Part shown: positions 1 through 25,894 of the stretch, piece after piece | Numbering within the stretch: the first letter of the stretch is position 1 | Layout: every line of letters starts with the position of its first letter | Notes under the pieces: generated by a model | Seen by the model: the letters and a program-made list of their open reading frames with translations, nothing else | What the model was told of the DNA's origin: nothing | Database searches by the model: none | Program-made: the position numbers and the translations under genes | IMG/VR virus record: IMGVR_UViG_2896589216_000002 | From: a virus | Taxonomy: Duplodnaviria; Heunggongvirae; Uroviricota; Caudoviricetes | Length of the DNA: 34,924 nt | Direction: 5' to 3' (one strand)

Positions 1-381
1 ATGCAGAAAAATGTGAATCCCGGCAGGCGAAAAGGCTGCCCTAATTATCCTCCCGAATTTAAACAGCAGCTCGTTGCTGCCTCCTGTGAACCCGGGATAT
101 CCATCTCAAAACTTGCTCTTGAAAATGGCATTAACGCCAATCTGTTGTTCAAATGGCGACAACAATGGCGCGAGGGAAAGCTGCTATTACCTTCTTCAGA
201 GAGCCCCCAGCTACTTCCTGTGACTCTCGATGCAGCTGCCGAACAGCCAGAATCGCTCGCAGAGGATCCGGAAACCCTCAGTATCAGCTGTGAGGTAACG
301 TTCCGGCACGGGACGCTCCGCTTTAATGGCAATGTCAGCGAAAAGCTCCTGACTCTGCTGATACAGGAACTGAAGCGATGA
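1..381 (+). CDS. tnpA: IS66-family accessory protein TnpA (OrfA), first ~7 codons cut by window edge
   Basis: Identical to the 133-aa ORFs at 19886-20287 and 28328-28729 (which start MGTKVSDMQKNVN). Confidence 0.85.
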   Translation: MQKNVNPGRRKGCPNYPPEFKQQLVAASCEPGISISKLALENGINANLLFKWRQQWREGKLLLPSSESPQLLPVTLDAAAEQPESLAEDPETLSISCEVTFRHGTLRFNGNVSEKLLTLLIQELKR

Positions 382-725
382 TCCCGTTACCTTCCGGGAC
401 CAAAATTTGGCTGGTTGCCGGTATCACCGATATGAGAAATGGCTTCAACGGCCTGGCGGCAAAGGTGCAGACGACGCTGAAAGACGATCCGATGTCAGGT
501 CACGTTTTTATCTTCCGTGGGCGTAATGGCAGTCAGGTAAAGCTCCTCTGGTCTACCGGCGATGGACTGTGTCTGCTGACCAAACGGCTGGAGCGCGGCC
601 GCTTCGCCTGGCCGTCAGCCCGGGATGGCAAAGTGTTCCTCACACCGGCACAGCTGGCGATGCTCCTTGAAGGTATCGACTGGCGGCAGCCTAAAAGACT
701 GCTTACGTCCCTGACTATGTTGTAA
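378..725 (+). CDS. tnpB: IS66-family TnpB (OrfB), 115 aa
   Basis: ATGA overlap with tnpA; conserved IS66 OrfB-type sequence; three identical copies in window. Confidence 0.85.
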   Translation: MIPLPSGTKIWLVAGITDMRNGFNGLAAKVQTTLKDDPMSGHVFIFRGRNGSQVKLLWSTGDGLCLLTKRLERGRFAWPSARDGKVFLTPAQLAMLLEGIDWRQPKRLLTSLTML

Positions 726-773
726 GCCTCTTTATCCTGGTCGACGCTGAATGAGCCTGGTAATATACCCGGT

Positions 774-2312
774 ATGAGCAGCTCACTTCCTGACGATATC
801 AATGCACTGAAACGTCTCCTTGCCGAACAGGAGGCGCTGAACCGTGCCCTGCTGGAAAAGCTGAACGAGCGTGAACGCGAAATAGACCATCTGCAGGCAC
901 AGCTGGATAAGCTGCGCCGGATGAACTTCGGCAGCCGCTCCGAAAAAGTCTCCCGTCGTATCGCACAGATGGAAGCTGACCTGAAGGCACTTCAGAAAGA
1001 AAGTGATACCCTTACCGGTCGGGTTGACGACCCGGCCGTGCAGCGCCCGCTGCGTCAAACCCGCACCCGCAAACCGTTCCCCGAATCACTCCCCCGCGAT
1101 GAAAAACGGCTGCTGCCGGCAGCGTCATGCTGCCCGGAATGTGGAGGCTCACTGAGCTATCCGGGTGAGGATGCCGCCGAACAGCTGGAGTTGATGCGCA
1201 GCGTCTTCCGGGTTATCCGGACTGTACGTGAAAAGCATGCCTGTACTCAGTGCGATGCCATCGTGCAGGCCCCCGCGCCTTCACGGCCCATCGAGCGGGG
1301 TATCGCAGGACCGGGGCTGCTGGCCCGCGTGCTGATCTCAAAGTATGCAGAGCACACCCCGCTGTACCGCCAGTCTGAAATGTACGGCCGCCAGGGCGTG
1401 GAGCTGAGTCGTTCACTGCTGTCGGGCTGGGTGGATGCATGCTGCCGGCTACTGTCACCGCTGGAAGAAGCGCTTCAGGACTATGTGCTGACTGACGGTA
1501 AGCTCCATGCTGATGACACGCCTGTCCCGGTGCTGTTGCCAGGCAATAAGAAAACGAAGACCGGGCGGTTATGGACCTACGTTCGTGACGACCGTAACGC
1601 CGGGTCAACGCTGGCGCCGGCGGTGTGGTTCGCTTACAGCCCGGACAGAAAAGGCATCCATCCGCAGACCCATCTTGCGGGGTTCAGTGGTGTACTGCAG
1701 GCGGATGCATACGCCGGGTTCAACGAGCTGTACCGGGATGGCCGGATAACGGAAGCCGCCTGTTGGGCTCACGCCCGCCGTAAAATCCACGATGTGCACG
1801 TTCGCACCCCGTCAGCCCTGACGGAGGAAGCGCTGAAACGGATCGGCGAACTGTACGCCATCGAGGCAGAGATAAGGGGAATGACGGCGGAGCAGCGCCT
1901 TGCCGAACGTCAGTTGAAAACGAAACCGCTGCTGAAATCCCTGGAAAGCTGGCTGCGTGAAAAGATGAAAACCCTGTCGCGACACTCAGAACTGGCGAAA
2001 GCGTTCGCATACGCCCTGAACCAGTGGCCGGCGCTGACGTACTATGCAGATGATGGCTGGGCTGAGGCGGACAATAACATCGCTGAAAATGCGTTGCGGA
2101 TGGTCAGTCTGGGCCGCAAAAACTACCTGTTCTTCGGTTCGGATCATGGAGGAGAGCGGGGAGCGCTGCTGTACAGCCTGATCGGGACGTGCAAACTGAA
2201 CGGAGTGGAGCCAGAAAGCTACCTCCGCTATGTCCTTGACGTCATAGCCGACTGGCCGATAAACCGGGTCGGCGAACTGCTCCCCTGGCGCGTAGCACTG
2301 CCGACTGAATAA
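774..2312 (+). CDS. tnpC: IS66-family transposase TnpC, 512 aa
   Basis: Long ORF with Cys-rich zinc-finger-like region (CCPECG...CTQC); identical to copy 3. Confidence 0.9.
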
Positions 2313-2345
2313 CACATCCCCGTCAATACGGTTCTTGCTGCACGC

Positions 2346-2705
2346 TTACGATTTTGCCAGCATGACTACCGGGGACAGGCGGCCCAGTGAGTCGGGACCA
2401 GCATTCCAGATACGACCGTTCCATTCAAACGTGAACGGCTTCGCCTCCTGTTCTGCGCGCCATGCTTCAATTTCCTGACGTCTGGCCTCTCTGGCCGCTT
2501 CCTGCATTTCTGGTGTCACAGTGAATGGGGCTATCTCACCCCATTTGCCGCTTTGCAGTTCCTGCCAGATTTGCTGACCCGTCGGAGCGACATCATCAGC
2601 GGTGGCTGTGTAGGGGACTGCCTGGTCCCTGTCGTCAAAAAAAACGTCACAGTCTACTGCGCCACTTTCGGTATAACGGGGATTAATGATTTTTTTAGTT
2701 TCCAC
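2346..2705 (-). pseudogene. tail fiber assembly protein (Tfa-like), GTG start at 2705; 3' end abuts IS66 and stop codon lies inside the IS terminus
   Basis: RBS gagga upstream of GTG (VETKKIINPRY...); last sense codon 2349-2351 and stop 2346-2348 straddle the IS66 end. Confidence 0.5.
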
Positions 2706-2715
2706 GGTGCATTCC

Positions 2716-3069
2716 TCACGATGTGCGAATAAAAAGCCCGGGCATTGCGCCAGAGACATGTGCATCCGGCACCCCGGACAGGGCGCAATATGACCCCGGT
2801 AATGAATGCTCTGAACATCCCGTAATGAAAAATTGTGGGGATGCTATATACGTTCCGGTGGGAGTACTGGGCACTGAAATCCCCACCGGTCCCAGTCGTG
2901 AGCCTCTGTATGACTGCCCCCTGACAAGTCTGATGACTTTATCACCGTCAGCTTCTCCCTGGTACGCAGCAATAATCAGCCCGCCAATGTCAGGGGCTCC
3001 CCATCTGTTGCGGACAGAGCTCGCCACGATTCTGTAAATAATATCTTCTGTGGTTATATTTATTTTCAC
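2716..3069 (-). CDS. hypothetical protein, 117 aa, between side tail fiber and tfa
   Basis: ATGA-coupled to upstream fiber ORF; no recognisable family; could be a displaced fiber C-terminal domain. Confidence 0.35.
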   Translation of the reverse strand: MKINITTEDIIYRIVASSVRNRWGAPDIGGLIIAAYQGEADGDKVIRLVRGQSYRGSRLGPVGISVPSTPTGTYIASPQFFITGCSEHSLPGSYCALSGVPDAHVSGAMPGLFIRTS

Positions 3070-4124
3070 CCAGTCAGTCTGGATATGGGCCAGTAGCAGT
3101 AGCGGGTGTGATAAATGGGGCCGTTAATGCCGTAAAAAGTAAGGGATTTGGCTCTGTACCGCGGTTCTGTTGTCTCAGGGCGTGCATCAGTCCACCGGAT
3201 GCTGAGCACCCCTTCAAACCGTGTGTCGGGTATGATGCCCAGGCGGCCAGCAACGGAATACTCACCTGGCAGCGCATTCCTTACCCAGGCCAGGAAATCA
3301 CTCTTAGTGTCAAAACGGATAACATCTTCAGGCAGAAAAGCACACCCAAAGCCGAATGCGCCGGGTATCGCCAGACGGCCTTTTGTCCGGTCGTAAATGT
3401 CGCTCTGTGCTTCCATCGTGGCCGCACTTTTCAGCCCCAGATTATCCCGGGACTTCTGTTGTGCCTTTTCGCCTGCTGCTGCGATTTCTGACAGATGGTT
3501 AGCCATTTTCAGAGTGCCGGTAAGCGCAGCATCAATGTCATTTTTGGCCTGTTCTGCTGCGCGGGCATAACCTGCGGCATCCTGTGCGCTCTGTCCGGCT
3601 GCGGCTGCATTTGCTCCTGTGCTTGTCACATCTTCCGCAGTGGCCTTTCTGTCCTCAGCTGTGACGGTTGCATCCTGTCTGGCATTCTCCGCAAAACGTT
3701 GTGCATCATCACGGGCCGTTGCGGCTGCCGCCACATCCTGCGCCGTCTGCTGTGCGTTTCCGGCTGCGGCCCCGGCGCTCTGCTGCGCCTGCACCACCAT
3801 TTCCTCAAAGCGTTTGACGACATCCGGTTTCAGGTCGCCCTCATCAGGAGCAATCAGAAAGTCATTCAGCGTGCCGGGCTTTGAGTCCTCATATACAGCA
3901 ATGTCGCCAACGTTGTACTCGTTGTGCCAGCCCGGTTTCAGATACACACCATATTTTCCAGTCCGCGCATGGAAACAGTATTCACCATCGTTTCCTGTCA
4001 TCACATCAGCAACAGTGTGCATCACCACTTCCGGGGTGTTTACCCGGGATTTCAGAATAATATGGTATCCGGACATGGGGATACCTGCGCCATCAGTCAG
4101 CGCACCTGATATCACTACAGACAT
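3066..4124 (-). CDS. stf: side tail fiber protein with lambda Stf-like N-terminal domain and Ala/Gln-rich shaft, 352 aa
   Basis: N-terminus (ISGALTDGAG...VYEDSKPGTLNDFL) parallels lambda Stf N-domain (VYEDSQPGTLNDFL). Confidence 0.7.
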   Translation of the reverse strand: MSVVISGALTDGAGIPMSGYHIILKSRVNTPEVVMHTVADVMTGNDGEYCFHARTGKYGVYLKPGWHNEYNVGDIAVYEDSKPGTLNDFLIAPDEGDLKPDVVKRFEEMVVQAQQSAGAAAGNAQQTAQDVAAAATARDDAQRFAENARQDATVTAEDRKATAEDVTSTGANAAAAGQSAQDAAGYARAAEQAKNDIDAALTGTLKMANHLSEIAAAGEKAQQKSRDNLGLKSAATMEAQSDIYDRTKGRLAIPGAFGFGCAFLPEDVIRFDTKSDFLAWVRNALPGEYSVAGRLGIIPDTRFEGVLSIRWTDARPETTEPRYRAKSLTFYGINGPIYHTRYCYWPISRLTG

Positions 4125-4476
4125 AGTTTTTCTCGCGATAAATTAAATCAGGAAGAAATTTCCGGAGAGGCGGGCCATTCAATGGCGTTGTATGAGGTTT
4201 TATCAGTGATGACACTGAAATCCATCGCCTGCAGCGATTTCGCGTAAATGCGGTACGCTTTCAGTTTTTCCCGGTCTTCGTCGCTGATTAGCCCCAGCAG
4301 CAGGTCTTCTTCCCATTCCCCTGTCCGGGCACTGACCTGAGCCAGAAGGGCATCACGCTCATCTTCCGCTTTGAGTCTGTAGTCAAAGACAAATTCATCA
4401 TTGCGGTAAAACCAGTAACCCGGCGCGGTAATGCGGCGGTTGGCGGTAATATCAGGAACTTGGTAATGACTCCAAC

Positions 4477-4980
4477 TTACTGATAGTGTTTTATGTTCAG
4501 ATAATGCCCGATGACCTTGTCATGCAGCTCCACCGATTTTGAGAACGACAGTGACTTCCGTCCCAGCCTTGCCAGATGTTGTCTCAGATTCAGATTATGT
4601 CGCTCAATGCGCTGAGTGTAACGCTTGCTGATAACGTGCAGCTTTCCCTTCAGGCGTGATTCATACAGCGGCCAGCCATCCGTCATCCATACCACGACCT
4701 CAAAGGCCGACAGCAGGCTCAGAAGACGCTCCAGTGTGGCCAGAGTGCGTTCACCGAAGACGTGCGCCACAACCGTCCTCCGTATCCTGTCATACGCGTA
4801 AAACAGCCAGCGCTGACGTGATTTAGCACCGACGTAGCCCCACTGTTCGTCCATTTCAGCGCAGACAATCACATCACTGCCCGGTTGTATGCGCGAGGTT
4901 ACCGACTGCGGCCTGAGTTTTTTAAGTGACGTAAAACCGTGTTGAGGCCAACGCCCATAATGCGTGCACTGGCGCGACAT
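4477..4980 (-). CDS. insB: IS1 InsB
   Basis: Canonical IS1 InsB sequence. Confidence 0.9.
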
Positions 4981-5174
4981 CCGACGCCATTCATGGCCAT
5001 ATCAATGATTTTCTGGTGCGTACCGGGCTGAGAGGCGGTGTAAGTGAACTGTAGTTGCCATGTTTTACGGCAATGAGAGCAGAGATAGCGCTGATGTCCG
5101 GCAGTGCTTTTGCCGTTACGCACCACGCCTTCAGTAGCGGAGCAGGAAGGACATCTGATGGAAATGGAAGCCAC
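4899..5174 (-). CDS. insA: IS1 InsA
   Basis: Canonical 91-aa InsA with CxxC zinc finger. Confidence 0.9.
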
Positions 5175-5472
5175 GCAAGCACCTTAAAATCACCATCATA
5201 CACTAAATCAGTAAGTTGGCAGCATTACCCAGGAACTTCAATAACACTGGCGTTACGGGGTTCAATGCCTGTCACATCCTTACCGACCCACACCACGCGA
5301 CCGTCTCCGGTGTAAGTTATTTTAATTGTGTCGCTGGCGAAATTCTTCAGCTCTTCATACCAGTTTTTTCCGTCTTCCGAAAAAAGCCAGGTGACATCAT
5401 ATTGTTTTGTCAGCTGATATTGTTCCACGGTTTTCGGATTGCCCGCAGTAATATTTTTTAAATGCAACATTG

Positions 5473-6858
5473 TTAAACACTCGCCACGTTATACCAGGTG
5501 CCATTAATCAGTTTCTGAAGCGGGCGGTAATACACGCCGTTGACGTTATCCGCTGAGTCACGGCCGGTATCCGATATCGCTATCCCTGACAGCCCGTGTC
5601 CCGAAGGTGCGCGAAATCTCCACGAAACGGTGTTACTGCCGGGGCTGTAATACATTTCATGGCCATACCGTACATCCTGTACCCCCTCTGTTCGATATTT
5701 ATAGCGGGCATCGAAGTTTCCGTAATTTAACGGAATTACCTGTCCGTTTACGGCGAACGTGATGCTGTTATCTGTATTCCTCTGGCTGAAAAAATGCCAG
5801 CCTGAATCATCGCCAAGCTCTGCAACAACAGACCTGGATGGATTACCCCACAAATAAAACGCTGCATTTTTCGTGGAGTTGTTGGCGCTGGATAACGTGA
5901 ATTTTCTGGCAGTTCCGGCCTGAATATTCTTAAAAGCAATAGCCACTCCATTCTGAAAGCGGAATACACGCTGACTATTAGCATAAACATCCAGAATACC
6001 GTCTCCATTCTGTTTAAATCCGGTGTCATTATCACCAAGAACAATTGAATTCCCCCCCAGGGCGTTCTGAACGCCGATACCCAGCGCACCATTGACCTGC
6101 GAACCACCGCCAACAGACACTTTATGCGACATGGATATTTCACCCGTCCGCAAATTAATGGTGAACGGGCGCAGGGGACCAATATCGCCATTTTCCCCCT
6201 GACCTTCACTGGTGGGAATAAGGTGCAGGCACTCTTCCGAACGACGAAAAATCAGGCCAAAAGCTTCGTTGAAAATCCTCAGCGCATTAACACCACGGAT
6301 TTTCAGCTCTCCGGTTATTTTATCGCCTTCCCGATGAACATAGCGTTGATCTGACTGCTCTTTACTGTAAACCTGAAGATTATCCCGTGCCGTCCCTTTA
6401 TTCTGAAGGTCTGACAGATTGTTCTTCTGCCGCAGGAATATCCTTTTCGGATCCTCAAGAAGATTTACCCAGCCCGCACTGTCGGAGCCTTCAGGATCGG
6501 TCAGGTTATCGTCTGTGGTATTCAGCCAGACCGCTGTTGTTGCGACTCCGGCGAGAATGGCTCCTTTTGCATATCCACCAATGGCCCCCGCAAAACCGGC
6601 ATTATACGTGTACAAACCGCCAGCTTGGGCGAACCGTATTGCTGCGGTAATATCGTACATCAGACCGTTAAAATCCTTGCAGTGTGGCGGTATACCTCCC
6701 GCTGAGACCGCTGTCATGGTCACCGGAGGAAAACCTGAATCATACGCAGCATTACCGCTCTCTCTGGTCTGCTGTGTCGCCTTGTCCGGGATACGGTTTT
6801 TATCTCCGGTACTCGCAAAGGGGACCGCCAGCTGGCGGGGTTTATCACTGGCCTTCAT
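5473..6858 (-). CDS. phage tail fiber protein, 461 aa
   Basis: Sits between baseplate genes and tfa; stop directly abuts tfa start. Confidence 0.6.
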
Positions 6859-7261
6859 TACGGGACTCCTTTAAAACTACTGAAACATAAACACCCGGCG
6901 GGGACGGCAGTGCACCCGACGACTGGATAATCGCCAGTTCTGCCAACGAGAGCGCGGACTCAAAGATGTAACTCATCCTCAGCCCACCATTATTCAGAAC
7001 ATAAGCCCGCCGTTTTTTTCCGAACATAAATCTCAGCATCCGGTTAATATCCGGAACGGAACAGTCAGTAATGTTCGACATGGCTTTCATCAGTATCAGC
7101 CGCCGGTATACAGCATCAGACAGGTCAACAGTCCGGGTATCCGATTTTCCGTTGTAAAACGGTGCCTGATTAGACTGGCCCCCTGAATCTCCAGACAACC
7201 AGTATCACTTAAATAAGTGATAGTCTTAATACTAGTTTTTAGACTAGTCATTGGAGTACAG

Positions 7262-7627
7262 ATGATTGATGTCTTAGGGCCGGAGAAACGCAGACGGCGT
7301 ACCACACAGGAAAAGATCGCAATTGTTCAGCAGAGCTTTGAACCGGGGATGACGGTCTCCCTCGTTGCCCGGCAACATGGTGTAGCAGCCAGCCAGTTAT
7401 TTCTCTGGCGTAAGCAATACCAGGAAGGAAGTCTTACTGCTGTGGCCGCCGGAGAACAGGTTGTTCCTGCCTCTGAACTTGCTGCCGCCATGAAGCAGAT
7501 TAAAGAACTCCAGCGCCTGCTCGGCAAGAAAACGATGGAAAATGAACTCCTCAAAGAAGCCGTTGAATATGGACGGGCAAAAAAGTGGATAGCGCACGCG
7601 CCCTTATTGCCCGGGGATGGGGAGTAA
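7262..7627 (+). CDS. insC: IS2 InsC (OrfA)
   Basis: Starts [16 protein letters not shown] protein. Confidence 0.9.
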
Positions 7628-8490
7628 GCTTAGTCAGCCGTTGTCTCCGGGTGTCGCGTGCGCAGTTGCACGTCATTCTCAGACGAACCGATGACTGGAT
7701 GGATGGCCGCCGCAGTCGTCACACTGATGATACGGATGTGCTTCTCCGTATACACCATGTTATCGGAGAGCTGCCCACGTATGGTTATCGTCGGGTATGG
7801 GCGCTGCTTCGCAGACAGGCAGAACTTGATGGTATGCCTGCGATCAATGCCAAACGTGTTTACCGGATCATGCGCCAGAATGCGCTGTTGCTTGAGCGAA
7901 AACCTGCTGTACCGCCATCGAAACGGGCACATACAGGCAGAGTGGCCGTGAAAGAAAGCAATCAGCGATGGTGCTCTGACGGGTTCGAGTTCTGCTGTGA
8001 TAACGGAGAGAGACTGCGTGTCACGTTCGCGCTGGACTGCTGTGATCGTGAGGCACTGCACTGGGCGGTGACTACCGGCGGCTTCAACAGTGAAACAGTA
8101 CAGGACGTCATGCTGGGAGCGGTGGAACGCCGCTTCGGCAACGATCTTCCGTCGTCTCCAGTGGAGTGGCTGACGGATAATGGTTCATGCTACCGGGCTA
8201 ATGAAACACGCCAGTTCGCCCGGATGTTGGGACTTGAACCGAAGAACACGGCGGTGCGGAGTCCGGAGAGTAACGGAATAGCAGAGAGCTTCGTGAAAAC
8301 GATAAAGCGTGACTACATAAGTATCATGCCCAAACCAGACGGGTTAACGGCAGCAAAGAACCTTGCAGAGGCGTTCGAGCATTATAACGAATGGCATCCG
8401 CATAGTGCGCTGGGTTATCGCTCGCCACGGGAATATCTGCGGCAGCGGGCTTGTAATGGGTTAAGTGATAACAGATGTCTGGAAATATAG
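7585..8490 (+). CDS. insD: IS2 InsD (OrfB transposase)
   Basis: 301-aa DDE ORF overlapping insC in -1 frame. Confidence 0.9.
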
Positions 8491-8787
8491 GGGCAAATCC
8501 ACTGATTAAACGGACAGGGATCATCCATTACCGGGGTGTCCATCCTGGACTCGCTGAAGCCCAGGTAATTAAAATCGTCCTTTACCGTCAGCCGGCGACT
8601 GACACCCACAATCTTTCCCCAGACATCAAGACCATACTTTTCTGCGGTATCGATGTTCCAGATAAGACCATAAAAATCACTGATAAAACTGTCGGGGGAA
8701 AGCGCTGCGTTAAAGCTGTTAATGAGGGCATTGAGTCGGGGGCTGGCAGCATACTGCGCAAGCACAGTGGCAGCCACATTCTGCACG

Positions 8788-10025
8788 TTATGCCTCCTGG
8801 AGTTTCACACTGATATCCGACACATCCAGAACCGGAATCTCATCTATCCCGAAAGTGACAGCCGTTGTCCATGACGAACCGTCACGGCTCACAGTAAGGC
8901 CCAGAATATCAATATGTTCCGGATCGGTTTTGTAAATGCCGGCATAGTAGCGCCCGGCAGAGACAACAGAGGCAACCCTTGCCCGCAGACCACCATCTGT
9001 ACCATTAAATGCGTCCAGCACGGATTGCTGTACCTGTCGGGTAATATCTGAAGGCAGGTAGTCACTTTTTTTCAGCGTCACACTGACATGCAGACTGACG
9101 GGTTTGAGTGTCTGCCAGCTGATTACGTATTCAGGATACGGCGGATCGTACTCCTTATCTGCAACAGTGAACGTTGTGTTGCCATTCATATCAATACCCG
9201 GCGGAGCCTTACGCCAGATGGCCGCCGCGATATCTGCCGGGCTGCCGCCGTACACGCCAACATAAAGCGAACCGGGTGTTAATGGATACTGACTGACTCC
9301 GGCTTTTTGTTCTGTTTTTTTCGGATTATGGGGGACGTAAACATCCACCACGTTTTCTACCGTGGAGAGTATTTCACCCCGGATGGCTTCCAGAATATTC
9401 CGGGCATTACGGGCAACTGAATTACGTCGGCGGTTTTCAAAGTCCGCACGGGTTTCCTCATCGCTGCCCGGCACACCGGCACGGGCGTTAGTGACACCTG
9501 ACCAGCCAGGTATTGCCTTATAAATTTTATTCAGCGTCCCCACAGGACAGCCGACGGGGCCGGTGGACAAATTCAGAAATACCGCATCAACCTGCCCTGA
9601 TGCGCCGATAGTGACGTCTGACTGACATACTTATAACCGGCCTCATCCTGCCCCATACTGCCCGCCGGGATCAGCGTGCCAACCAGCCCGGTACAGGTCG
9701 CTGTTACTGTCGTACCTGTGGCCCCACGGCGCTCCAGGAAATAAATCCTGCCTATTGCATCCTGAAAGCGACCACTGGAAAAGTCAGGGTTGATCTGGTT
9801 AACGATATACAGCAACTGATCGTTTTTATCCGCAATAATGGCGCTTTCGCTGGATGCAAGTTGTCCCTGCGGACTGCTCAGACTGGTACTCATGGCCCCG
9901 CCCAGCGCCGCCGAAAAATCAGCAAGCCTGCCGCTCAGAATATCCGCTTCATCCGGCACATTCAGCCCGCTATCCGAAATCTGTACAGCGGGCACTGCGG
10001 TAGAAAAAGATTTATTTTCACTCAT
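8788..10025 (-). pseudogene. baseplate J-like protein split by an apparent 1-nt frameshift near 9615-9635
   Basis: 150-aa N-terminal ORF (9573-10025) and 260-aa ORF (8788-9570); the second frame reads ...SDVTIGASGQVDAVFLN... straight after the first stops. Confidence 0.6.
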
Positions 10026-10378
10026 AGCAGTACCGTAAAAATGTCATTATTGGTATCTGTAATACGCAGCACACCTGTTACTGTCCGGGTTTGATCAGCT
10101 GTGACCTGGCAGACAGCGGCGCTCACGGTCGGCAGTTTAAGTGCTTCCTGTTGCAGAGTGGCATTCACCAGTTGTGTGCCGGGCCAGTGTCCGAGGATGC
10201 GTGGCCAGTAAGGTATGCCAGCCGTTGAGTCGTACCAGCACTCCCCCAGAAAAGTACTGCACGCACACGCCACATCCTGAGCTACCGCATGGGGATTATC
10301 AGTAATGGCAAGATTTCCGGTATCATCAAGCAGGATATCCCATGTCCCGGTGTCAAGAAGAAGTGATCGTGACTGCAT
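10022..10378 (-). CDS. baseplate wedge protein (gpW / gp25-like), 118 aa
   Basis: Size and position between V-like and J-like genes. Confidence 0.5.
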   Translation of the reverse strand: MQSRSLLLDTGTWDILLDDTGNLAITDNPHAVAQDVACACSTFLGECWYDSTAGIPYWPRILGHWPGTQLVNATLQQEALKLPTVSAAVCQVTADQTRTVTGVLRITDTNNDIFTVLL

Positions 10379-10390
10379 GTTTTCTCCTGT

Positions 10391-11068
10391 TTACCGGGAT
10401 CCCTGCGTGGTTGAGCCGCCGGACTCAACGCCGCCGTGAACGTGGTTTCCAAAATCAATACCCCCGATGTTCGAACCGCCGGAAAGCCTGGACTGCCCGG
10501 TAACGTCAAGCCCCTTACTGACGGCGGTATCGCCGTTCAGCGCAATTTGTGGTGAGTTAACGGTGAAGCTTTTCGGCGCATTAATCACCCCCTCAGGCGC
10601 GGATATCTCCACTTTCCAGGGAGATACAATCCGTATCTGGTTGTCATCAAATACCACAAACTGGACGGGATCACCGTTGAGCACGCCACCCAGCCAGATG
10701 GCATCAGCATAATTATGGGTACGCTTTGATCCCGGCATCGCAGCCTGACGCGTGGCTTTTACCGCACTGATATCCCGATCGCAGATGGCAAGAAAACCGA
10801 TATCCCCCACATGTGGCGGGATAATCACCGCATTACCGCCCCCCTGTAGTCGCCATACGGGAATGTTATAAATCACCTCATGTTCAACCGGGGAACCGTC
10901 TGCTGCAACGCCCATTACCATCGGTCGGGCCTCAATAAATCCCTCTTCCACGGCTACCACCCGTCCCAGAGTGATAAACGCATGACGTCCGAGAAACTGC
11001 CGCAGCATAAAGTCCTGTGCATTGATTTCGCTGTTCACGTCTGTCGGGTTACTGAGTGGTTGTGCCAT
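10391..11068 (-). CDS. baseplate spike / assembly protein V-like (Mu gp45-like), 225 aa
   Basis: C-terminal GNHVHGG motif; position upstream of W/J. Confidence 0.6.
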   Translation of the reverse strand: MAQPLSNPTDVNSEINAQDFMLRQFLGRHAFITLGRVVAVEEGFIEARPMVMGVAADGSPVEHEVIYNIPVWRLQGGGNAVIIPPHVGDIGFLAICDRDISAVKATRQAAMPGSKRTHNYADAIWLGGVLNGDPVQFVVFDDNQIRIVSPWKVEISAPEGVINAPKSFTVNSPQIALNGDTAVSKGLDVTGQSRLSGGSNIGGIDFGNHVHGGVESGGSTTQGSR

Positions 11069-11918
11069 TTTCTTCAGCCCTCATCATGGTACAGTTGGAA
11101 CTCCACGGACCGCCCACGGTTCGCGAAGTAATGGTGTGTATCACCCCTGTGATCGTATAATCGCCCGTCATATCAGGCAGTGACGATTCCAGATGCGCTG
11201 GCCTGCCAGTAAAGAGATCGGGGCAGAATATCGTGGTGGCGCTGAGTCCGGTCATGGTGTAAACCGGATAGCCAGTCAGTCCGTGATCCGGCGAAATCAG
11301 TACCGGCGGAATATTCCGGTTCTGCCCTTTCGGCCAGATGGTGACTTTCTCCACATTCCCCAGATCAATGTTAATATCGGCGGCTGAAGCGACATCCAGC
11401 ATTTGTTGTACAACATTACCGGAAAAATGCGGGTCAGACAGACTGCGGCTGACCCCCTGGTTTTCAAATCCAAGCCCGACAGTTGACGCCAGCGCACGGA
11501 TAATATCTGCAACCGCAACATCGCCCTTTGCGCTGAAATCTGCCGCCGGCTGATTACGCAGATTAAAATGAATCTGTCCTGTCAGAATGAGCGGAATATC
11601 CGGCGCCTGGTTGTAGTCGGCGTATGCATCAGTAATATCACCTTCAAAAATAAGCCGCCCGTCGGCCCACAGCCGCATTTTATTTGCGGTACTCTGCTCC
11701 TGTCGCCACACACCGCGCCAGCTTAAATTCGTCATATGCGCCGGTGACATTCCCCAGATATACAGCGTGATTTGTGTACCAGCCACCCCTCCATATACGG
11801 CAATACTGGCAAAACAGCTTGCGTCGGTAATGGTCAGCATATTGCCCTGGCCATTACCAAACGTTCGTCCGTCTGAAAGAGTGAACTCCACCGTTATTTT
11901 ACGTTGTCTGTAGCTCAT
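11049..11918 (-). CDS. phage tail protein, possible baseplate hub, 289 aa
   Basis: Position between tape measure and baseplate genes. Confidence 0.4.
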
Positions 11919-12217
11919 ATCAGTTCCTCAGGTAACAGCCAGTAGAGCCGGTACCGGGATCCGAGCCCCCGCCAGTCAGGGTCACTATTCCCCTCCGTGT
12001 CGGTAAAAAACAGATCCCCCTGAAACGGCAGGTATCCGTACCGGACAATCCGGTTATTATTCAGACACAGCACGCCATACAGGCACGGTTCACCATTAAC
12101 AATGATATCGATATACATCCCCGTAGTACGCTGATTCAGGCGAATGGTGCAGACCTGAGCGCCCAGTGTCACCGTAAACTGCTGGGCTTTAACGGGAGAT
12201 AAAACAATTTCCAGCAT
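11915..12217 (-). CDS. phage tail protein, 100 aa
   Basis: Translationally coupled within tail operon. Confidence 0.35.
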
Positions 12218-12927
12218 CAGGTGATCCCCCTGTTCGTGGCGCTTCGTCTGTCAGCGTCTGACGGTTGTGTCTCCGACGCCGTAACTGGCTGCGTTTTAAC
12301 CGATGCGGCCCCTTTTGCTTTATCGTTGTCCGTGGGAGACGACTTATCCGTACTTCCCACTGACACCTCTCCTGTATTCATTACGGTCTGAAATACCGCA
12401 GTAACCGTCAGTAAGGTCGGACCATTATTACTTCGCATTCGGTAGTCATATTTCACAAGGTCGCAGGATGTCCATGTCTTGTCCGGCGTCTCAATATCGT
12501 AGAGTCCTGCCGTGGTACGCATCCTTTCAAGCGTTTCCAGCACATTCGTCCGCGAGGTGGTGGAAAAATTTGTCAGGTTCGGGACGGATCCGGAAAAGGC
12601 CGTCCACCCCTCTACAGTGAAAGTCACATGCAGTTCCGGCGATCTCTGGATTTTATTAAAGGTGGTATAAGCCCCCTGCTCCACGGGGACGGTGGAAACA
12701 GAAGCCTCCGCGCCCACCTCAACGACAACAAAAGAATCCGGGGAGAAAGGTTTGCCACCCTTCTGATGGGCACCTGCCGGATCATTCCGTGCGTAATAAA
12801 TACCGAATGACGGTGCCAGTACACTATTAATGAGTCCCAGGACACAGCCGCCACGAACTGCACTCAGTACGTTACTTTCACTGAGCGAAAAGTTATTCAG
12901 GGAAATATTATCGAAAGAAAAACTCAT
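12217..12927 (-). CDS. phage tail protein, 236 aa, directly downstream of tape measure
   Basis: Operon position; overlapping stop/start. Confidence 0.4.
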
Positions 12928-14944
12928 CCTGTTACCCCGCTGGAATAAACCGACACAAGCGCCGAATTCGTGATACGCCGACGTGCGTCATCGGTAATAC
13001 CCTTCACATTGTCCGACGTTGTGGTGACATTCAGTGTCCCGATATGCGTGGTTTCCGTTACGGTGGACTGCGATACAGGCGCAGGATGGAGCGACCGTAT
13101 GGCCATTGCCGCACCCGGATAAGGCAGGTTCGCCAGCACCCGCGGAATATAGTTGCGGGTCTCCTCCGGAGCAGCAGCCAGTCCCTTACGCTGAACATTT
13201 CCCTCTCCACAGTTATATGCCGCCAGAGCCTTAGCCAGATCGCCATGAAAAAAACGTATCAGGCCACCAAGTTTTCTCGCGGCGGCATCAGCGGCTTTTT
13301 CGGGATCAAAGGCATCGTTCCCCCTCAGACCAAATTCACTGGCCGTCTTCGGCATGAACTGAAACAGTCCCATCGCACCAGCAGGTGAGACGGCAAACTG
13401 ATTACCACGGGATTCGGTGATCGCAACGCTGCGCAGCAGTCCGGGCGGCAGGTTATATTTTTCCTCCAGTTGAGACAGTTTCGGTTGCAGCCAGCCTAAC
13501 AGGGCTTCCCCGGTCTTCGTCGGTCGCTGGCGGTTTTGCATGGCATTACCGAGTTTTTCCTGCGTCGCACGCATACCCTGTAGCCAGGATTCACCGAAGG
13601 CTGCTTCCCTCCCGGTTGCCTGAGAAGCCTGAGTATCCAGCATGCCCTGCTGCCATACTGTGGGTGATTGTGCCCGGGTGATGTTGCCAGGCTTTTCTCC
13701 GGCATCCAGTTTTGTCTGATACGTCTCCATCTCTTTCTTATTGAAAAAGAAAGTCCCGTCTGAAGCCCAGAAAAAACCATGTGAATCCAGCCAGTCCTTA
13801 TTTTCCCTGCCAACAATGGATGTCAGTAATCCGTCAACAACCGGGTAAAGCGCCGTTATCGCAAAAAGAAGGCCTCCGGGGCCACTGAGGGCTTTTGTCA
13901 GCCCCCGCACCCATGACGCCACTTTCAGCCCGATCAGCGTAATAATGACATTCTGCCAGCCCCCCAGTTCTCCGGCAGCCTTATTCGCTAGGGAGGCCAC
14001 TGACTCAACGTCATTCAGAAATGTGGTGATAAACCTGTTCACTTCCTCCGGATGTTGCTGCATCCAGTCACCGAGTGTCTCCAGCCAGTGGCTGAGCTTC
14101 AGCGCGTACGGCATCAACGCGGTGCTAATCGTCATCCCGATGCCGGACCAGGTCTGATCGAGCTCAACAAGCTCTTTTCGTAGCTTACGGGCCAGCGCTG
14201 TACGCCCCGGCGTAACCTGCGAACGGGAAGTAAATTCGTCCACATCTTTCAGCGCATGACCGGAGCCAAGAAACTGCTGTCCGGCATAACTGAAGCCCAG
14301 CGCGTTGCCGTAGGCAGTTTGTTCGGACTTTGTCAGTCGCGGAAAAATAACCGCCAGCTTGCGCATGATGGCTTCAGTGCTGTCAGTATTTAAATCAACA
14401 CTAATGCCCGCCCTGGCTGCAACCTGAAACAAATCCTGTAACACAGGATCAAAGGACCTTCCGGCTCTGAAGGCCGCTTTTGCATTTGCAAGCCGGGAAA
14501 ATGCCCCAGACATTTCCCCTTCATCAACATTATTTGCCCGCGCAGCCCGTAACCATCCGTCCAGATTTCTGGCCTTCATGCCAAAAGCATCGGATTCCAC
14601 GGACAGACGGTTCAGATCACGGGCAAAACCTGTTACCAGGTTCTTCAGCCCCCCAGCGTCAGACTGACACCCGCAAGAGCCAGAATCTCGCTACGGATTC
14701 CTGAAAAAAAACGGGACGCCCGTTTCCCGGCATCTTCCATTCGACGGGCCGTTTTATCAGCATCTTTTCCGGTTTTTTCCAGTGATTCACTGGTTTTCTT
14801 CTGTCCCTGACTGAATGTGTCAGCGACACCTTCCATCACCGTCGTGAGCCGGTTAAGGGCAGCATGTACTGCCTGTTCCCCGGCAGTAAAGTCCCTGTCA
14901 TCAATCCCGAGGGACAGAACAAGCTCATCAAGTACCTGCGCCAT
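12924..14944 (-). CDS. tail tape measure protein with C-terminal lytic transglycosylase (SLT) domain; N-terminal 99 aa and main 558 aa separated by a frameshift in a C6 tract
   Basis: SLT motif (ITESRGNQFAVSPAGAMGLFQFMP...AYNCGEGNV); adding one G to the run at 14649-14654 fuses the frames as ...SLTLGGLKNLVTGFARDLNRLSVESDAF... Confidence 0.7.
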
Positions 14945-15180
14945 TTCTGTTCTCCTGTATCACCTGTTCGTTATGGGCATCCACATGAATTATTTCCAGC
15001 AGATCCCATAAGTCCTGCACACCAAGGACAGAATCCAGTTCAGCTTTTGAAGCCTTACCGGAGGAGATAACGGTCGCAATGGTACGGGGAACATTAACGT
15101 AATCCACCACCCCGAACGGTCTGTCGGGGTCGAGATAACGCGGGGGATATCTAGCTGACGACGGTAGCGAAAAAATCCAC
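14928..15180 (-). CDS. candidate frameshift extension of tail chaperone (+1 frame relative to 15151-15555)
   Basis: Protein-like +1 frame (...PRYLDPDRPFGVVDYVNVPRTIATVISSGKASKAELDSVLGVQDLWDLLEIIHVD...) opens at the T6C run and ends overlapping the tape measure start. Confidence 0.4.
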
Positions 15181-15555
15181 ATGCAGCTTAAAGACCTCCG
15201 CACGCAGATTAAGACGGGTAATGATTTCTTCAATATCCTCTTCAACAAGCGGTCTCCGGATGCTGCGTTTTTTCGGATCGGGAACAAACTGCACACAGTC
15301 CATCATTTCATCCATCAACGGACGCGCCTCATCAGGCGGAATTTTCGATAATGCTTTCAGCCCTTCAAGGGCAAGCGCAGCCATCCCCAGACTACGAACA
15401 TCATCCGGTAACTCCACGCCACCACGCCCCATTGCCATAATGGCACGCATCGCCCACCATTCCGCCTGTGAGGCAGACATTTCGGTAAGATGAAATACCT
15501 TGCCCTTATCCCGTCCCTGACCTTCAATAGTGATAAATTTCTCTTTACGGGCCAT
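15151..15555 (-). CDS. tail assembly chaperone, 134 aa
   Basis: Directly upstream of tape measure; ends at slippery run GAT TTT TTC. Confidence 0.5.
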   Translation of the reverse strand: MARKEKFITIEGQGRDKGKVFHLTEMSASQAEWWAMRAIMAMGRGGVELPDDVRSLGMAALALEGLKALSKIPPDEARPLMDEMMDCVQFVPDPKKRSIRRPLVEEDIEEIITRLNLRAEVFKLHVDFFATVVS

Positions 15556-15893
15556 CAGTTAAAAACCTCCGGAGTAATGGTTTCCCACTCAATAACCGCC
15601 TGCCCTGGCTGCAACGTACGAGCTGCATCAGGCAGCGCTTTCCATTGTTTGAGTACGCCATTCACGCAGGTATATTTACGGCCAATCGCCGGAAGCAGGA
15701 CGACAGCGTTACAACGGAATACAGCCCGACTGGCCCGGATGTGGTTGACCAGGTATCAAAAATATCCCGGCTGGGGGAATCCGGCATGATATGAAACGTC
15801 TGGATAATGTTGCTGTACACAAATCCCGCGGACAGTTTGGTAATGCTGCCAACTTACTGATTTAGTGTATGATGGTGATTTTAAGGTGCTTGC

Positions 15894-16169
15894 GTGGCTT
15901 CCATTTCCATCAGATGTCCTTCCTGCTCCGCTACTGAAGGCGTGGTGCGTAACGGCAAAAGCACTGCCGGACATCAGCGCTATCTCTGCTCTCATTGCCG
16001 TAAAACATGGCAACTACAGTTCACTTACACCGCCTCTCAGCCCGGTACGCACCAGAAAATCATTGATATGGCCATGAATGGCGTCGGATGTCGCGCCAGT
16101 GCACGCATTATGGGCGTTGACCTCAACACGGTTTTCCGTCACTTAAAAAACTCAGGCCGCAGTCGGTAA
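15894..16169 (+). CDS. insA: IS1 InsA
   Basis: 91-aa InsA. Confidence 0.9.
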
Positions 16170-16195
16170 CCTCGCGCATACAACCGGGCAGTGAT

Positions 16196-16591
16196 GTGAT
16201 TGTCTGCGCTGAAATGGACGAACAGTGGGGCTACGTCGGTGCTAAATCACGTCAGCGCTGGCTGTTTTACGCGTATGACAGGATACGGAGGACGGTTGTG
16301 GCGCACGTCTTCGGTGAACGCACTCTGGCCACACTGGAGCGTCTTCTGAGCCTGCTGTCGGCCTTTGAGGTCGTGGTATGGATGACGGATGGCTGGCCGC
16401 TGTATGAATCACGCCTGAAGGGAAAGCTGCACGTTATCAGCAAGCGTTACACTCAGCGCATTGAGCGACATAATCTGAATCTGAGACAACATCTGGCAAG
16501 GCTGGGACGGAAGTCACTGTCGTTCTCAAAATCGGTGGAGCTGCATGACAAGGTCATCGGGCATTATCTGAACATAAAACACTATCAGTAA
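16196..16591 (+). CDS. insB: IS1 InsB
   Basis: InsB frame. Confidence 0.9.
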
Positions 16592-17955
16592 GTTGGAGTC
16601 ATTACCGACAGTTTACCGTCAATACCGCGGGCAGTTTCCGCCAGTACCAGTGGATCGGTGCCATAAACGTTATCTGTTGCAAATCCCTGAAGTCGTACGC
16701 CGGAGGGATACAGATTATTCACTGTCAGCGTGATAATGGCATCCGCCGCAGTGATGGTGTTGTTGTTACCCGACATTTACTGGACCTCCGTGGATGCAAT
16801 AACAAGTTTCTGGATACTACCGCCGTCACAGTACCAGAGCGTACAGGACGGACTGCTACGGGTTGCCCGCAAAGAGGGAAGCATATCGCCGATATACAGG
16901 TAATAGCCGGTGGCAAACAACGTTGAAGAAACATCTGCCTCCACAACATTGTTAATCTGTTTCTTCTGCGCCTCCGTCAGTGTCACCCCTTCACGGATCC
17001 CTCCCAGCGTTTGTACTGCTGGATAACGTCACTCATTGACGCTGCAACCAGCGCCCGCCCTTCATTGTTGTAGGGGACCGTCTGGTTTGACTTGAATAAT
17101 GCGATCACCGCCCCTGCAAACTGGCATTCAGCCAGATTTGCCCGCAGAAACTGTCCAGCCATTTAAAATCACCGGTAATAGTGCCATCCGCCCAGTAATC
17201 TTCCACCACACTGTTTTCCGCATATTTTCCGTAGAAATTGTAACCTGCGGCGATCAGCGCATCATAATCGCTGCCACTGGTAACATCAGCGGCCAGCCCC
17301 TCATACTCGCGGAACTTGAATGATACACGCCCCTCTGGTCGGATAAAATCAAGGCACGCTGCATACCCCAGTACCGCTGCAGCCCGGTTACCATCAGTCG
17401 CGAAAACAGGTACAACAGAGCTGTAGTTATTGACAGCAATTATCTGGTAAGCGATGTGTTCAGTACTGCCTTTTACTCTGGCGTTGCCGCTGGTTGTCCA
17501 TGCCACATAAAAGTAACGCTTGCCCTGCCCGTTTGCCCATGCAGAAAACGCCAGGTGTTGCTCGTCAGTGACCTCAGATACCGTGGAAAAACCCGCCCAT
17601 TGCTGGGAAGCGGCCTTAATGGCTGCCATTGTGTCAGGGACATCAGATACAGGCGCGCCCCGGGATATCACCGCACCGGTGTTACTGGTCATCTTCAGGA
17701 GTTCTGCTGCCGATCCACTGCCGAACGTTATCGTGGTACTCCCGGGTTTCGCCCCGGCGACAGTAATGACAAAAGCATTCTGTGTGGTATCGAATACCAC
17801 TGTAGCCACTGCTGCGGTCAGCGCTGTCTGTAGTGCCGTTGCAGCAGCGGCGAAGCTGGCGACACCGTTAAAATTCACTTCAATGCTGACGCTTTTCCCG
17901 TTAATACTCAGCATCAGCGTAAGCGTGCAGCAAGAACCGTATTGACGGGGATGTG

Positions 17956-19493: not shown

Positions 19494-19541
19494 ACCGGGT
19501 ATATTACCAGGCTCATTCAGCGTCGACCAGGATAAAGAGGC

Positions 19542-19889
19542 TTACAACATAGTCAGGGACGTAAGCAGTCTTTTAGGCTGCCGCCAGTCGATACCTTCAA
19601 GGAGCATCGCCAGCTGTGCCGGTGTGAGGAACACTTTGCCATCCCGGGCTGACGGCCAGGCGAAGCGGCCGCGCTCCAGCCGTTTGGTCAGCAGACACAG
19701 TCCATCGCCGGTAGACCAGAGGAGCTTTACCTGACTGCCATTACGCCCACGGAAGATAAAAACGTGACCTGACATCGGATCGTCTTTCAGCGTCGTCTGC
19801 ACCTTTGCCGCCAGGCCGTTGAAGCCATTTCTCATATCGGTGATACCGGCAACCAGCCAAATTTTGGTCCCGGAAGGTAACGGGATCAT
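19542..19889 (-). CDS. tnpB: IS66 TnpB (copy 2)
   Basis: Identical to copies 1 and 3. Confidence 0.85.
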   Translation of the reverse strand: MIPLPSGTKIWLVAGITDMRNGFNGLAAKVQTTLKDDPMSGHVFIFRGRNGSQVKLLWSTGDGLCLLTKRLERGRFAWPSARDGKVFLTPAQLAMLLEGIDWRQPKRLLTSLTML

Positions 19890-20287
19890 CGCTTCAGTTC
19901 CTGTATCAGCAGAGTCAGGAGCTTTTCGCTGACATTGCCATTAAAGCGGAGCGTCCCGTGCCGGAACGTTACCTCACAGCTGATACTGAGGGTTTCCGGA
20001 TCCTCTGCGAGCGATTCTGGCTGTTCGGCAGCTGCATCGAGAGTCACAGGAAGTAGCTGGGGGCTCTCTGAAGAAGGTAATAGCAGCTTTCCCTCGCGCC
20101 ATTGTTGTCGCCATTTGAACAACAGATTGGCGTTAATGCCATTTTCAAGAGCAAGTTTTGAGATGGATATCCCGGGTTCACAGGAGGCAGCAACGAGCTG
20201 CTGTTTAAATTCGGGAGGATAATTAGGGCAGCCTTTTCGCCTGCCGGGATTCACATTTTTCTGCATATCTGACACTTTGGTTCCCAC
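19886..20287 (-). CDS. tnpA: IS66 TnpA (copy 2)
   Basis: 133-aa full-length. Confidence 0.85.
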   Translation of the reverse strand: MGTKVSDMQKNVNPGRRKGCPNYPPEFKQQLVAASCEPGISISKLALENGINANLLFKWRQQWREGKLLLPSSESPQLLPVTLDAAAEQPESLAEDPETLSISCEVTFRHGTLRFNGNVSEKLLTLLIQELKR

Positions 20288-22617: not shown

Positions 22618-23685
<1,068 letters not shown>

Positions 23686-23694
23686 ATGGCGACA

Positions 23695-24593: not shown

Positions 24594-25894
<1,301 letters not shown>

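What the first reader, a model, noticed from the sequence alone, without database searches (positions are those of the whole stretch)
4137..5470. IS1 insertion in tfa with intact 9-bp target duplication
caggaactt occurs at 4453-4461 and 5230-5238. Removing IS1 and one repeat copy gives a continuous ~190-aa Tfa-family ORF (...IEVPDITANRRITAPGYWFY...). This is a simple, recent insertion with no later rearrangement.
Basis: seen in the sequence. Interest (0 to 1): 0.5.

Follow-up and report, generated by a model that had tools for sequence, protein, structure and literature searches.

The report
IS1 insertion splitting a prophage tfa gene
A 768-bp IS1 mobile element has jumped cleanly into the tail-fibre chaperone gene of an already dead Shigella prophage, which is an ordinary event in these insertion-sequence-laden genomes.

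Summary
CAGGAACTT occurs only at 4453-4461 and 5230-5238. The two copies abut a complete 768-bp IS1 (4462-5229, minus strand) with both terminal inverted repeats, insA, the TTAAAAAAC frameshift motif and insB'. Removing IS1 and one repeat gives a 181-aa ORF (5470..4148, minus), not about 190 aa, and it ends at 4148 rather than 4137. This ORF matches Pfam Caudo_TAP (E=1.7e-25) and phage Mu tail-fibre assembly protein U (PDB 5YVQ_B, E=5.5e-39).

The decisive evidence is the empty site. Two other public assemblies (source names point to Shigella) carry the same prophage at the same chromosomal boundary without IS1. Their tfa is identical to the repaired ORF at all 546 nt, and the two flank alignments overlap by exactly the 9-bp repeat.

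"Recent" needs qualifying. The identical insertion is in at least five complete assemblies: S. dysenteriae 14 ATCC 49346, which matches the window 100% over 13.5 kb, and four I could not name. So it is inherited within a clade, not private to one strain. That clade also shares a 4-bp frameshift deletion in the next gene. The prophage was already disabled, because an IS2 in a baseplate gene is present in both occupied and empty genomes. About 40% of the window is insertion sequence. This is a well-understood, low-interest event.

The parts
5230..5470 (-). The 5' part of tfa: codons 1-80 plus the first base of codon 81. As it stands it is read as an 81-aa product (5225-5470). That product has 80 native residues, then a Gly codon (GGG) that spans the junction, then a TAA stop supplied by the IS1 terminal repeat GGTAATG.
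   Evidence: Translation. The ATG at 5470 lies 2 nt after the stop of the upstream tail-fibre gene (5473).
5230..5238 (.). Target-site duplication, copy next to the insA end of IS1 (CAGGAACTT on the + strand, AAGTTCCTG on the gene strand).
   Evidence: Empty alleles carry a single copy.
4462..5229 (-). Complete 768-bp IS1 of an IS1F-like isoform, with insA and insB' pointing the same way as tfa.
   Evidence: Inverted repeats. Pfam. 99.7% identical to an element annotated 'IS1 family IS1F' in LC567836.1. Differs by 2 nt from the window's other IS1 at 15839-16606. Found as an exact match in five public complete genomes.
4899..5174 (-). insA, 91 aa.
   Evidence: Pfam Zn_ribbon_InsA (E=5.9e-20) and HTH_Tnp_IS1 (E=4.9e-30).
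4917..4925 (-). TTAAAAAAC, the -1 programmed frameshift motif in the overlap between insA and insB'.
   Evidence: One search places the motif at element positions 305-313. insA is in frame offset 1 and insB' in offset 0, which is a -1 relation. That this motif drives frameshifting in IS1 is established knowledge and was not tested here.
4477..4980 (-). insB' reading frame, listed from its first ATG (167 aa).
   Evidence: Pfam DDE_Tnp_IS1, E=1.3e-74, covering profile positions 1-131 of 131.
4453..4461 (.). Target-site duplication, copy next to the insB end of IS1.
4148..4461 (-). The 3' part of tfa: the duplicated 9 bp plus codons 81-181 and the stop codon at 4148-4150. It is now separated from its start codon and promoter side.
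   Evidence: 0 nt differences from intact alleles.
5473..6858 (-). Upstream tail-fibre gene (461 aa), the presumed client of Tfa.
   Evidence: Its position matches the gene annotated 'phage tail protein' or 'tail fiber' in L001 and L002. That it is the client is inferred from gene order.
3066..4124 (-). Downstream second tail-fibre gene (stf2, with a lambda-Stf-type N-terminal domain). It is cut to 352 aa by a 4-bp deletion near 3080. In genomes with the empty site it is 470 aa.
   Evidence: Pfam phage_tail_N, E=1.9e-67. The deletion is mapped. The 470-aa gene in L010 and L016 is listed.

Best explanation
An IS1 element transposed into a tail-fibre assembly (chaperone) gene, tfa, of a defective contractile-tail prophage in a Shigella chromosome. 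The window is identical to S. dysenteriae serotype 14 ATCC 49346 (CP026832) over the 13.5 kb compared. The IS1 transposase made a 9-bp staggered cut in the target, and repair of the gaps duplicated CAGGAACTT on both sides of the element. The insertion lies after the first base of codon 81, inside the conserved PDITANRR motif. The gene now yields at most an 81-aa stub, which stops at a TAA supplied by the IS1 end. The remaining 101 codons are stranded downstream, so tfa is a pseudogene. Nothing was lost or rearranged at the site afterwards. The event happened once in an ancestor of a small clade and was inherited. It came after an IS2 had already broken a baseplate gene, so it most likely had no effect on fitness and is simply one step in prophage decay. 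SHOWN: the anatomy, the duplication, the empty orthologous allele, the family assignments, and the sharing among genomes. INFERRED: the direction of the event (insertion rather than excision), loss of chaperone function, and neutrality.
For: (1) A 768-bp element with IS1 inverted repeats, insA, the A6C motif and a full DDE_Tnp_IS1 frame. (2) Perfect 9-bp repeats abutting both ends. (3) The repaired 181-aa ORF matches Caudo_TAP at 90.2 bits, Mu protein U (5YVQ_B) at E=5.5e-39 over residues 1-158, and phiP27 Tfa at 74%. (4) The exact repaired protein exists intact in public data, on 64 contigs. (5) Orthologous empty sites exist in L010 and L016, which have the same prophage, the same IS2 and the same IS66-zitB-pnuC-nadA boundary. 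L010 1-8241 matches window 13470-5230 at 99.90%, and L010 8233-12697 matches window 4461-1 at 99.87%. The two alignments overlap by exactly the 9 bp. The tfa ORF differs at 0 of 546 nt. (6) More distant empty alleles in two E. coli-labelled genomes span exactly 1124 bp, which is 1901-768-9, without gaps. (7) The identical 1401-bp occupied region is in five independent complete assemblies, and two draft contigs break off 118-124 bp into IS1, so this is not an assembly artefact. (8) All occupied genomes aligned (the window, L003 and L007) share a 4-bp deletion in stf2 that both empty genomes lack, which supports empty as the ancestral state. (9) IS insertions account for a large share of Shigella pseudogenes, and IS1 is among the expanded IS types (PMC7373316).
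Against: Nothing contradicts it. Four caveats remain. Loss of function is inferred from truncation and was not measured. Whether the genome keeps another intact tfa copy elsewhere is unknown; an identical tfa fragment sits between IS66 copies next to ipaH in other assemblies, L011-L015 and L017. I could name only one of the five carrier strains. The timing of the event is relative only.
Confidence: 0.96

Rival explanations
1. The empty alleles are derived. Under this reading, IS1 was ancestral in tfa and was lost by precise excision, through slippage between the 9-bp repeats, in the lineages that now have an intact gene.
For: Precise excision of IS1 between its direct repeats is a known rare event (established knowledge, not tested here). 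It would leave exactly the single-copy site seen.
Against: Intact alleles are widespread and diverse: 94%-identical versions in two E. coli-labelled genomes and 64 contigs with the identical protein. The occupied genomes share a second derived lesion, the 4-bp deletion in stf2, that the empties lack. Multiple independent precise excisions would be needed.
Confidence: 0.02
2. The insertion happened in a paralogous copy of the tfa module elsewhere in the genome, and homologous recombination or gene conversion later moved it into this prophage.
For: Other assemblies (source names point to Shigella) carry a second, 100%-identical tfa fragment in another context, between inverted IS66 copies next to ipaH (L011-L015 and L017). 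A donor or recipient copy for conversion therefore exists in the group.
Against: No occupied copy was seen in that other context. All five occupied loci are in the same prophage context. This rival changes nothing about what the feature is.
Confidence: 0.02
3. The 9-bp repeat is a coincidence, or the IS1 placement is an assembly artefact, or the element lies between unrelated sequences joined by recombination between two IS1 copies.
For: Counted over the whole window, a 9-mer recurs at least twice in 3 of 100 shuffles. Other IS copies in this window do lack matching duplications, for example the IS66 at 26360-28803.
Against: Both flanks are collinear with an uninterrupted gene in empty-site genomes, and the flank alignments overlap by exactly 9 bp. 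Five independent long-read assemblies and two short-read contigs support the junction.
Confidence: 0.005

Closest known systems
IS1 (IS1 family insertion sequence; IS1F-like isoform)
   Same: 768 bp. Imperfect terminal inverted repeats of about 23 bp starting GGTAATG. insA (Zn-ribbon plus HTH) followed by insB' in the -1 frame with an A6C slippery site. A 9-bp target duplication. 99.7% identical to an element annotated IS1F in LC567836.1.
   Different: Nothing of substance. It is about 91% identical to the IS1 copies of phages P1 and SfIV and to the second isoform at the window's end (34212-34924). The window therefore holds two IS1 isoforms.
Phage Mu tail fibre assembly protein U (PDB 5YVQ chain B); Pfam PF02413 Caudo_TAP
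   Same: The repaired protein aligns with Mu U from residue 1 to 158, E=5.5e-39, at about 46% identity in tblastn. It lies directly downstream of a tail-fibre gene, as U follows S in Mu (the Mu gene order is from my own knowledge).
   Different: Here the gene is interrupted at codon 81 and is a pseudogene. It is followed by a second tail-fibre gene in the same orientation, not by an inverted S'/U' pair in an invertible G segment. No invertase gene lies next to it in the window.
IS-mediated pseudogenisation in Shigella (Hawkey et al. 2020, PMC7373316)
   Same: An IS1 insertion inside a coding sequence, fixed within a lineage, in a genome with heavy IS load. The paper attributes 35% of S. dysenteriae pseudogenes (22% in S. 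flexneri, 50% in S. sonnei) directly to IS.
   Different: The target here is a gene of a prophage that was already defective, not a metabolic gene. No convergent or adaptive loss is implied.
Tfa of Stx2e phage phiP27 and of Actinobacillus phage vB_Apl-pPE4
   Same: These are the closest Tfa proteins in sequenced phages: 74% and 86% identity over the full 181 aa.
   Different: The rest of the tail and baseplate module (8800-14600) has no close relative in the phage collection. The best match is 66-71% identity over at most 12% of the query.

Membership tests
IS1 family insertion sequence | Length about 768 bp with imperfect terminal inverted repeats of about 23 bp (GGTRATG...) | tested here: met
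   4462-5229 is 768 bp. The ends match at 20 of 23 positions.
IS1 family insertion sequence | insA (Zn-ribbon plus HTH) and insB' (IS1-type DDE domain) reading frames | tested here: met
   Pfam PF03811 and PF12759 on the 91-aa ORF. PF03400 covers profile positions 1-131 of 131 on the 167-aa ORF, E=1.3e-74.
IS1 family insertion sequence | insB' lies in the -1 frame relative to insA, with an A6C slippery motif in the overlap | tested here: met
   TTAAAAAAC at element positions 305-313, with the frames offset by -1.
IS1 family insertion sequence | Target-site duplication of 8-9 bp, confirmed against an empty site | tested here: met
   9-bp CAGGAACTT on both sides, with a single copy in the orthologous empty alleles. 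The second IS1 in the window has an 8-bp duplication.
IS1 family insertion sequence | Ability to transpose | not testable with these tools
   All sequence features are intact, but activity needs a mating-out or papillation assay.
Tail fibre assembly protein (Pfam Caudo_TAP PF02413; Mu U / lambda Tfa type) | Profile match above the curated threshold | tested here: met
   Repaired ORF: 90.2 bits against a cutoff of 22.1, covering profile positions 2-131 of 131.
Tail fibre assembly protein (Pfam Caudo_TAP PF02413; Mu U / lambda Tfa type) | Homology to a structurally characterised member | tested here: met
   5YVQ_B 'Tail fiber assembly protein U', E=5.5e-39.
Tail fibre assembly protein (Pfam Caudo_TAP PF02413; Mu U / lambda Tfa type) | Gene lies immediately downstream of a tail-fibre gene | tested here: met
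   The upstream 461-aa gene ends at 5473 and tfa starts at 5470. L001 and L002 have the same arrangement, with annotation.
Tail fibre assembly protein (Pfam Caudo_TAP PF02413; Mu U / lambda Tfa type) | Uninterrupted reading frame in this window, meaning a functional gene | tested here: not met
   The frame is interrupted at codon 81. The product as it stands is 81 aa and keeps only residues 40-80 of the domain, which spans 40-178. It is a pseudogene of the family.
Tail fibre assembly protein (Pfam Caudo_TAP PF02413; Mu U / lambda Tfa type) | Chaperone activity on the cognate fibre | not testable with these tools
   This needs co-expression and fibre-folding assays.

The most novel reading that the evidence does not exclude
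The insertion might not have been neutral. It could have been selected because it silenced a tail-fibre module that was still being expressed, for example by stopping adsorption-competent tail-like particles or a costly fibre, or by polar shut-off of the downstream stf2 / DUF4376 cassette. That cassette sits next to the ipaH effector gene in related prophages. More modestly, the IS1 insertion together with the 4-bp stf2 deletion could serve as a lineage marker for a subclade containing S. dysenteriae 14.
Probability: 0.04. Interest if true: 0.3.

Novelty: already known. Interest (0 to 1): 0.07.

Why it matters
It matters little beyond bookkeeping. It is a clean, fully documented example of IS1 transposition, with the occupied site, the orthologous empty site and a 9-bp duplication all in hand. 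It could serve as a teaching case, as a correction for pseudogene annotation (some public records call the 81-aa stub a 'tail fiber assembly protein'), or as a presence/absence marker within one Shigella clade. It also helps order the decay steps of this prophage: IS2 in the baseplate gene came first, then IS1 in tfa and the 4-bp deletion in stf2, then further IS2 and IS66 events in some strains.

Tried and rejected
(1) An exact search for the tfa/IS1 junction (40-mer) in genome contigs found nothing. My guess, untested, is that Shigella is folded into E. coli in that one-genome-per-species collection. The source was found through the exact 81-aa product instead. (2) No complete genome in the E. 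coli collection holds the occupied allele: 0 records cover at least 80% of the query. (3) I tried to name the other four carrier strains (CP026807, CP026815, CP026819, CP026825) through the Kim et al. 2018 genome announcement, but neither the DOI nor the PMC id is held. Only CP026832 could be named, via PMC10132075. (4) A search for a close sequenced phage relative of the baseplate and tail module gave only 66-71% identity over at most 12% of the query, so the idea that this is a phiP27-like or Mu-like prophage as a whole is dropped. Only Tfa itself resembles those phages. (5) A paper search for the Mu Tfa structure paper did not return it, so statements on Tfa domain roles are limited to what the alignment shows. 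(6) Chance repeat, assembly artefact and IS1-IS1 recombination were considered and rejected.

Full report
OBSERVATION. The 9-mer CAGGAACTT occurs exactly twice in the 34,924-bp window, at 4453-4461 and 5230-5238. The count alone is only mildly unusual: 0.28 matches are expected, and 3 of 100 shuffles gave at least 2. What matters is that the two copies directly abut a 768-bp element at 4462-5229. Its ends are the IS1 inverted repeats GGTAATGACTCCAACTTACTGAT and GGTAATGCTGCCAACTTACTGAT, which match at 20 of 23 positions. The element lies on the minus strand. It encodes a 91-aa InsA (Pfam Zn_ribbon_InsA and HTH_Tnp_IS1) and an InsB' frame that matches DDE_Tnp_IS1 over the whole profile, E=1.3e-74. 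The TTAAAAAAC slippery motif sits in the overlap, with the two frames in a -1 relation. By sequence it is a complete IS1. It is 99.7% identical to an element annotated IS1F in a public phage record. It differs by 2 nt from a second full IS1 in the window at 15839-16606.

IN-SILICO EXCISION. Removing 4462-5229 and one repeat copy joins 5470..5239 to 4461..4148 on the minus strand. The repaired protein matches Pfam Caudo_TAP at 90.2 bits against a cutoff of 22.1. It aligns from residue 1 to 158 with phage Mu tail-fibre assembly protein U (PDB 5YVQ_B, E=5.5e-39). It is 74% identical to phiP27 Tfa and 86% identical to the Tfa of Actinobacillus phage vB_Apl-pPE4. The insertion point is after the first base of codon 81, inside the motif PDITANRR that is conserved with Mu U. 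As the sequence stands, translation gives 80 native residues, one Gly, and a TAA stop supplied by the IS1 terminal repeat. That product keeps only residues 40-80 of a domain that spans 40-178. Loss of function is inferred from this and was not measured.

EMPTY SITES. Three levels of evidence support the insertion. (a) In the collection of complete E. coli genomes, no record holds the occupied allele. Several records match both flanks in a single place spanning exactly 1124 bp, which is 1901-768-9. The two best are RMDEC465 and FDAARGOS_944, both of which carry ipaH. Each has an annotated, intact 546-nt 'tail fiber assembly protein' there. (b) The exact repaired 181-aa sequence is present in public data as an intact protein, 'MULTISPECIES: tail fiber assembly protein [Shigella]', on 64 contigs. 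(c) Two of those contigs, L010 (UYIT01000003.1) and L016 (PSSQ01000001.1), are true orthologous empty sites. They carry the same prophage, the same IS2 insertion in the baseplate wedge gene, and the same IS66-zitB-pnuC-nadA boundary. L010 positions 1-8241 align to window 13470-5230 at 99.90%. L010 positions 8233-12697 align to window 4461-1 at 99.87%. The two alignments overlap by exactly the 9 bp AAGTTCCTG, which is the signature of a target-site duplication. The repaired tfa ORF differs from L010 and L016 at 0 of 546 nt.

SOURCE AND SPREAD. The 81-aa truncated product is called as a gene in five complete NCBI assemblies (CP026807, CP026815, CP026819, CP026825, CP026832) and in short draft contigs. 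All five complete assemblies contain the identical 1401-bp region with IS1 and both repeats. Two draft contigs end 118-124 bp into IS1, as short-read assemblies do at repeats. This is therefore not an assembly artefact. The window is 100% identical over 13,470 bp to CP026832. A published paper identifies that record as S. dysenteriae 14 ATCC 49346 (PMC10132075). The one source name attached to the exact 81-aa product (9 contigs) is S. boydii. The five carriers differ around the site. Some have one IS2-type copy and some have two. stf2 is 313 aa in some and 352 aa in others. In CP026819 the IS66 copy is joined to different sequence. So the insertion predates their divergence. It is 'recent' only in the sense that no mutation has accumulated in the repeats, in the tfa flanks, or in the element itself.

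ORDER OF EVENTS (inferred). The IS2 at 7171-8501 (5-bp duplication CTGAT) and the IS66 copy that truncates the end of the module are present in both empty and occupied genomes, so they are older. The occupied genomes I aligned (the window, L003 and L007) share, besides IS1, a 4-bp deletion near window position 3080. It frameshifts the downstream second fibre gene from 470 aa to 352 aa and is absent from both empty genomes. This favours insertion over precise excision as the direction of change. It also shows that the prophage was already defective when IS1 arrived, so the insertion was most likely neutral.

CONTEXT. The window is a decayed contractile-tail prophage. Its recognisable genes encode baseplate proteins, a spike, a sheath initiator, an SLT-domain tape-measure-like protein, a DUF3383 sheath protein, a neck terminator, and remnants of an integrase and an early region. 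It is interrupted by many insertion sequences, which make up roughly 40% of the sequence. These are three IS66-family copies, two full IS1 copies, a 127-bp IS1 stub, a divergent IS1 isoform, one IS2, and three copies or fragments of another IS3-family element. Some are clean insertions with target duplications, such as the IS66 in the sheath gene (8 bp) and the IS2 (5 bp). Others are not: the IS66 at 26360-28803 has no matching duplication. The baseplate module has no close relative among sequenced phages.

COMPARISON WITH WHAT IS KNOWN. IS1 insertion with an 8- or 9-bp duplication is textbook biology (my own knowledge, not checked against a paper here). IS expansion and IS-driven pseudogene formation in Shigella are well documented. 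IS1 is one of five commonly expanded IS types, and 35% of S. dysenteriae pseudogenes are attributed directly to IS (PMC7373316). Every defining feature of IS1 that can be read from sequence is met. The target meets the features of the Tfa family except that its frame is interrupted, so it is a pseudogene of that family.

VERDICT. Its interpretation is supported, with minor corrections to ORF length and end coordinate and a qualification of 'recent'. The feature is ordinary and already explained.

Noticed in passing
window ~3080 (within 3066-4124, minus strand): A 4-bp deletion (GACT on the gene strand) frameshifts the second tail-fibre gene, stf2, from 470 aa to 352 aa. It is present in all IS1-occupied genomes I aligned (the window, L003 and L007) and absent from both orthologous empty-site genomes, so it marks the clade together with the IS1.
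   Followed up: yes
window 15839-16606: A second complete IS1 in the opposite orientation. It differs by 2 nt from the tfa copy and is flanked by an 8-bp duplication, GACAGTTT, in the tail-gene region. I did not look for an empty site for it.
   Followed up: partly
window 17918-20359: An IS66-family element (2442 bp) with a clean 8-bp duplication, GCATCAGC. It splits the DUF3383 tail-sheath gene into 20342-20707 and 17105-17914.
   Followed up: partly
window 25803-28803: A nested wreck. An integrase N-terminal remnant (25803-26246) is cut by a 127-bp IS1 stub (26233-26359). The stub is in turn cut by an IS66-family copy (26360-28803) that has no matching target duplication, which suggests an IS66-associated deletion or rearrangement.
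   Followed up: partly
window 7171-8501: An IS2 (1331 bp, 5-bp duplication CTGAT) inside the baseplate wedge gene. It is present in both IS1-occupied and empty genomes, so it predates the tfa insertion. Three carrier genomes (L003, L004, L006) have a second IS2-type copy beside it.
   Followed up: partly
window 34212-34924 (runs off the end): A different IS1 isoform, only about 91% identical to the two full copies. It abuts an IS3-family element at 32984-34211. The region therefore holds two IS1 lineages.
   Followed up: no
window 22966-23696, 24637-25895, 32984-34211: Three copies or fragments of another IS3-family element, with Pfam rve and HTH_Tnp_1 matches. Its name was not determined.
   Followed up: no
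L001 4239-6794 and L002 4383-6794, compared with window 2346-5470: The cassette tfa / stf2 (lambda-Stf N-terminal domain) / DUF4376 protein / ipaH effector follows a lambdoid J-Lom-Stf module in RMDEC465. In FDAARGOS_944 and in the window it follows a contractile-tail baseplate. It thus looks like a portable end-module shared by unrelated prophage types. In the window the DUF4376 gene is truncated by IS66 and no ipaH follows.
   Followed up: partly
L011-L015 and L017, positions ~7461-8657: A 1.2-kb fragment holding the last 173 codons of the fibre gene, an intact tfa, and 33 codons of stf2. It is identical to the window at all or all but one nt. It sits between inverted IS66 copies next to an ipaH gene and a yfhM-like alpha-2-macroglobulin gene. 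This is the same module decayed in a different way, or a paralogous copy.
   Followed up: partly
L006 (CP026819) 11126-16246: In this carrier genome the IS66 copy next to stf2 continues into sequence that lies at 28803-31480 in the window, instead of into zitB-pnuC-nadA. This indicates an IS66-mediated rearrangement between strains.
   Followed up: no
L016, junction at 6356/6357 (corresponds to window 7115-7170): The empty-site genome L016 lacks 56 bp directly next to the IS2 end, including one copy of the IS2 target duplication. This looks like an IS-adjacent deletion.
   Followed up: no
window 29600-32800: Early-region remnants that appear to belong to a second phage: a Rha/Ash-type antirepressor (30077-30901) and a CI-like HTH repressor (31694-32101). 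They are flanked by IS elements.
   Followed up: no
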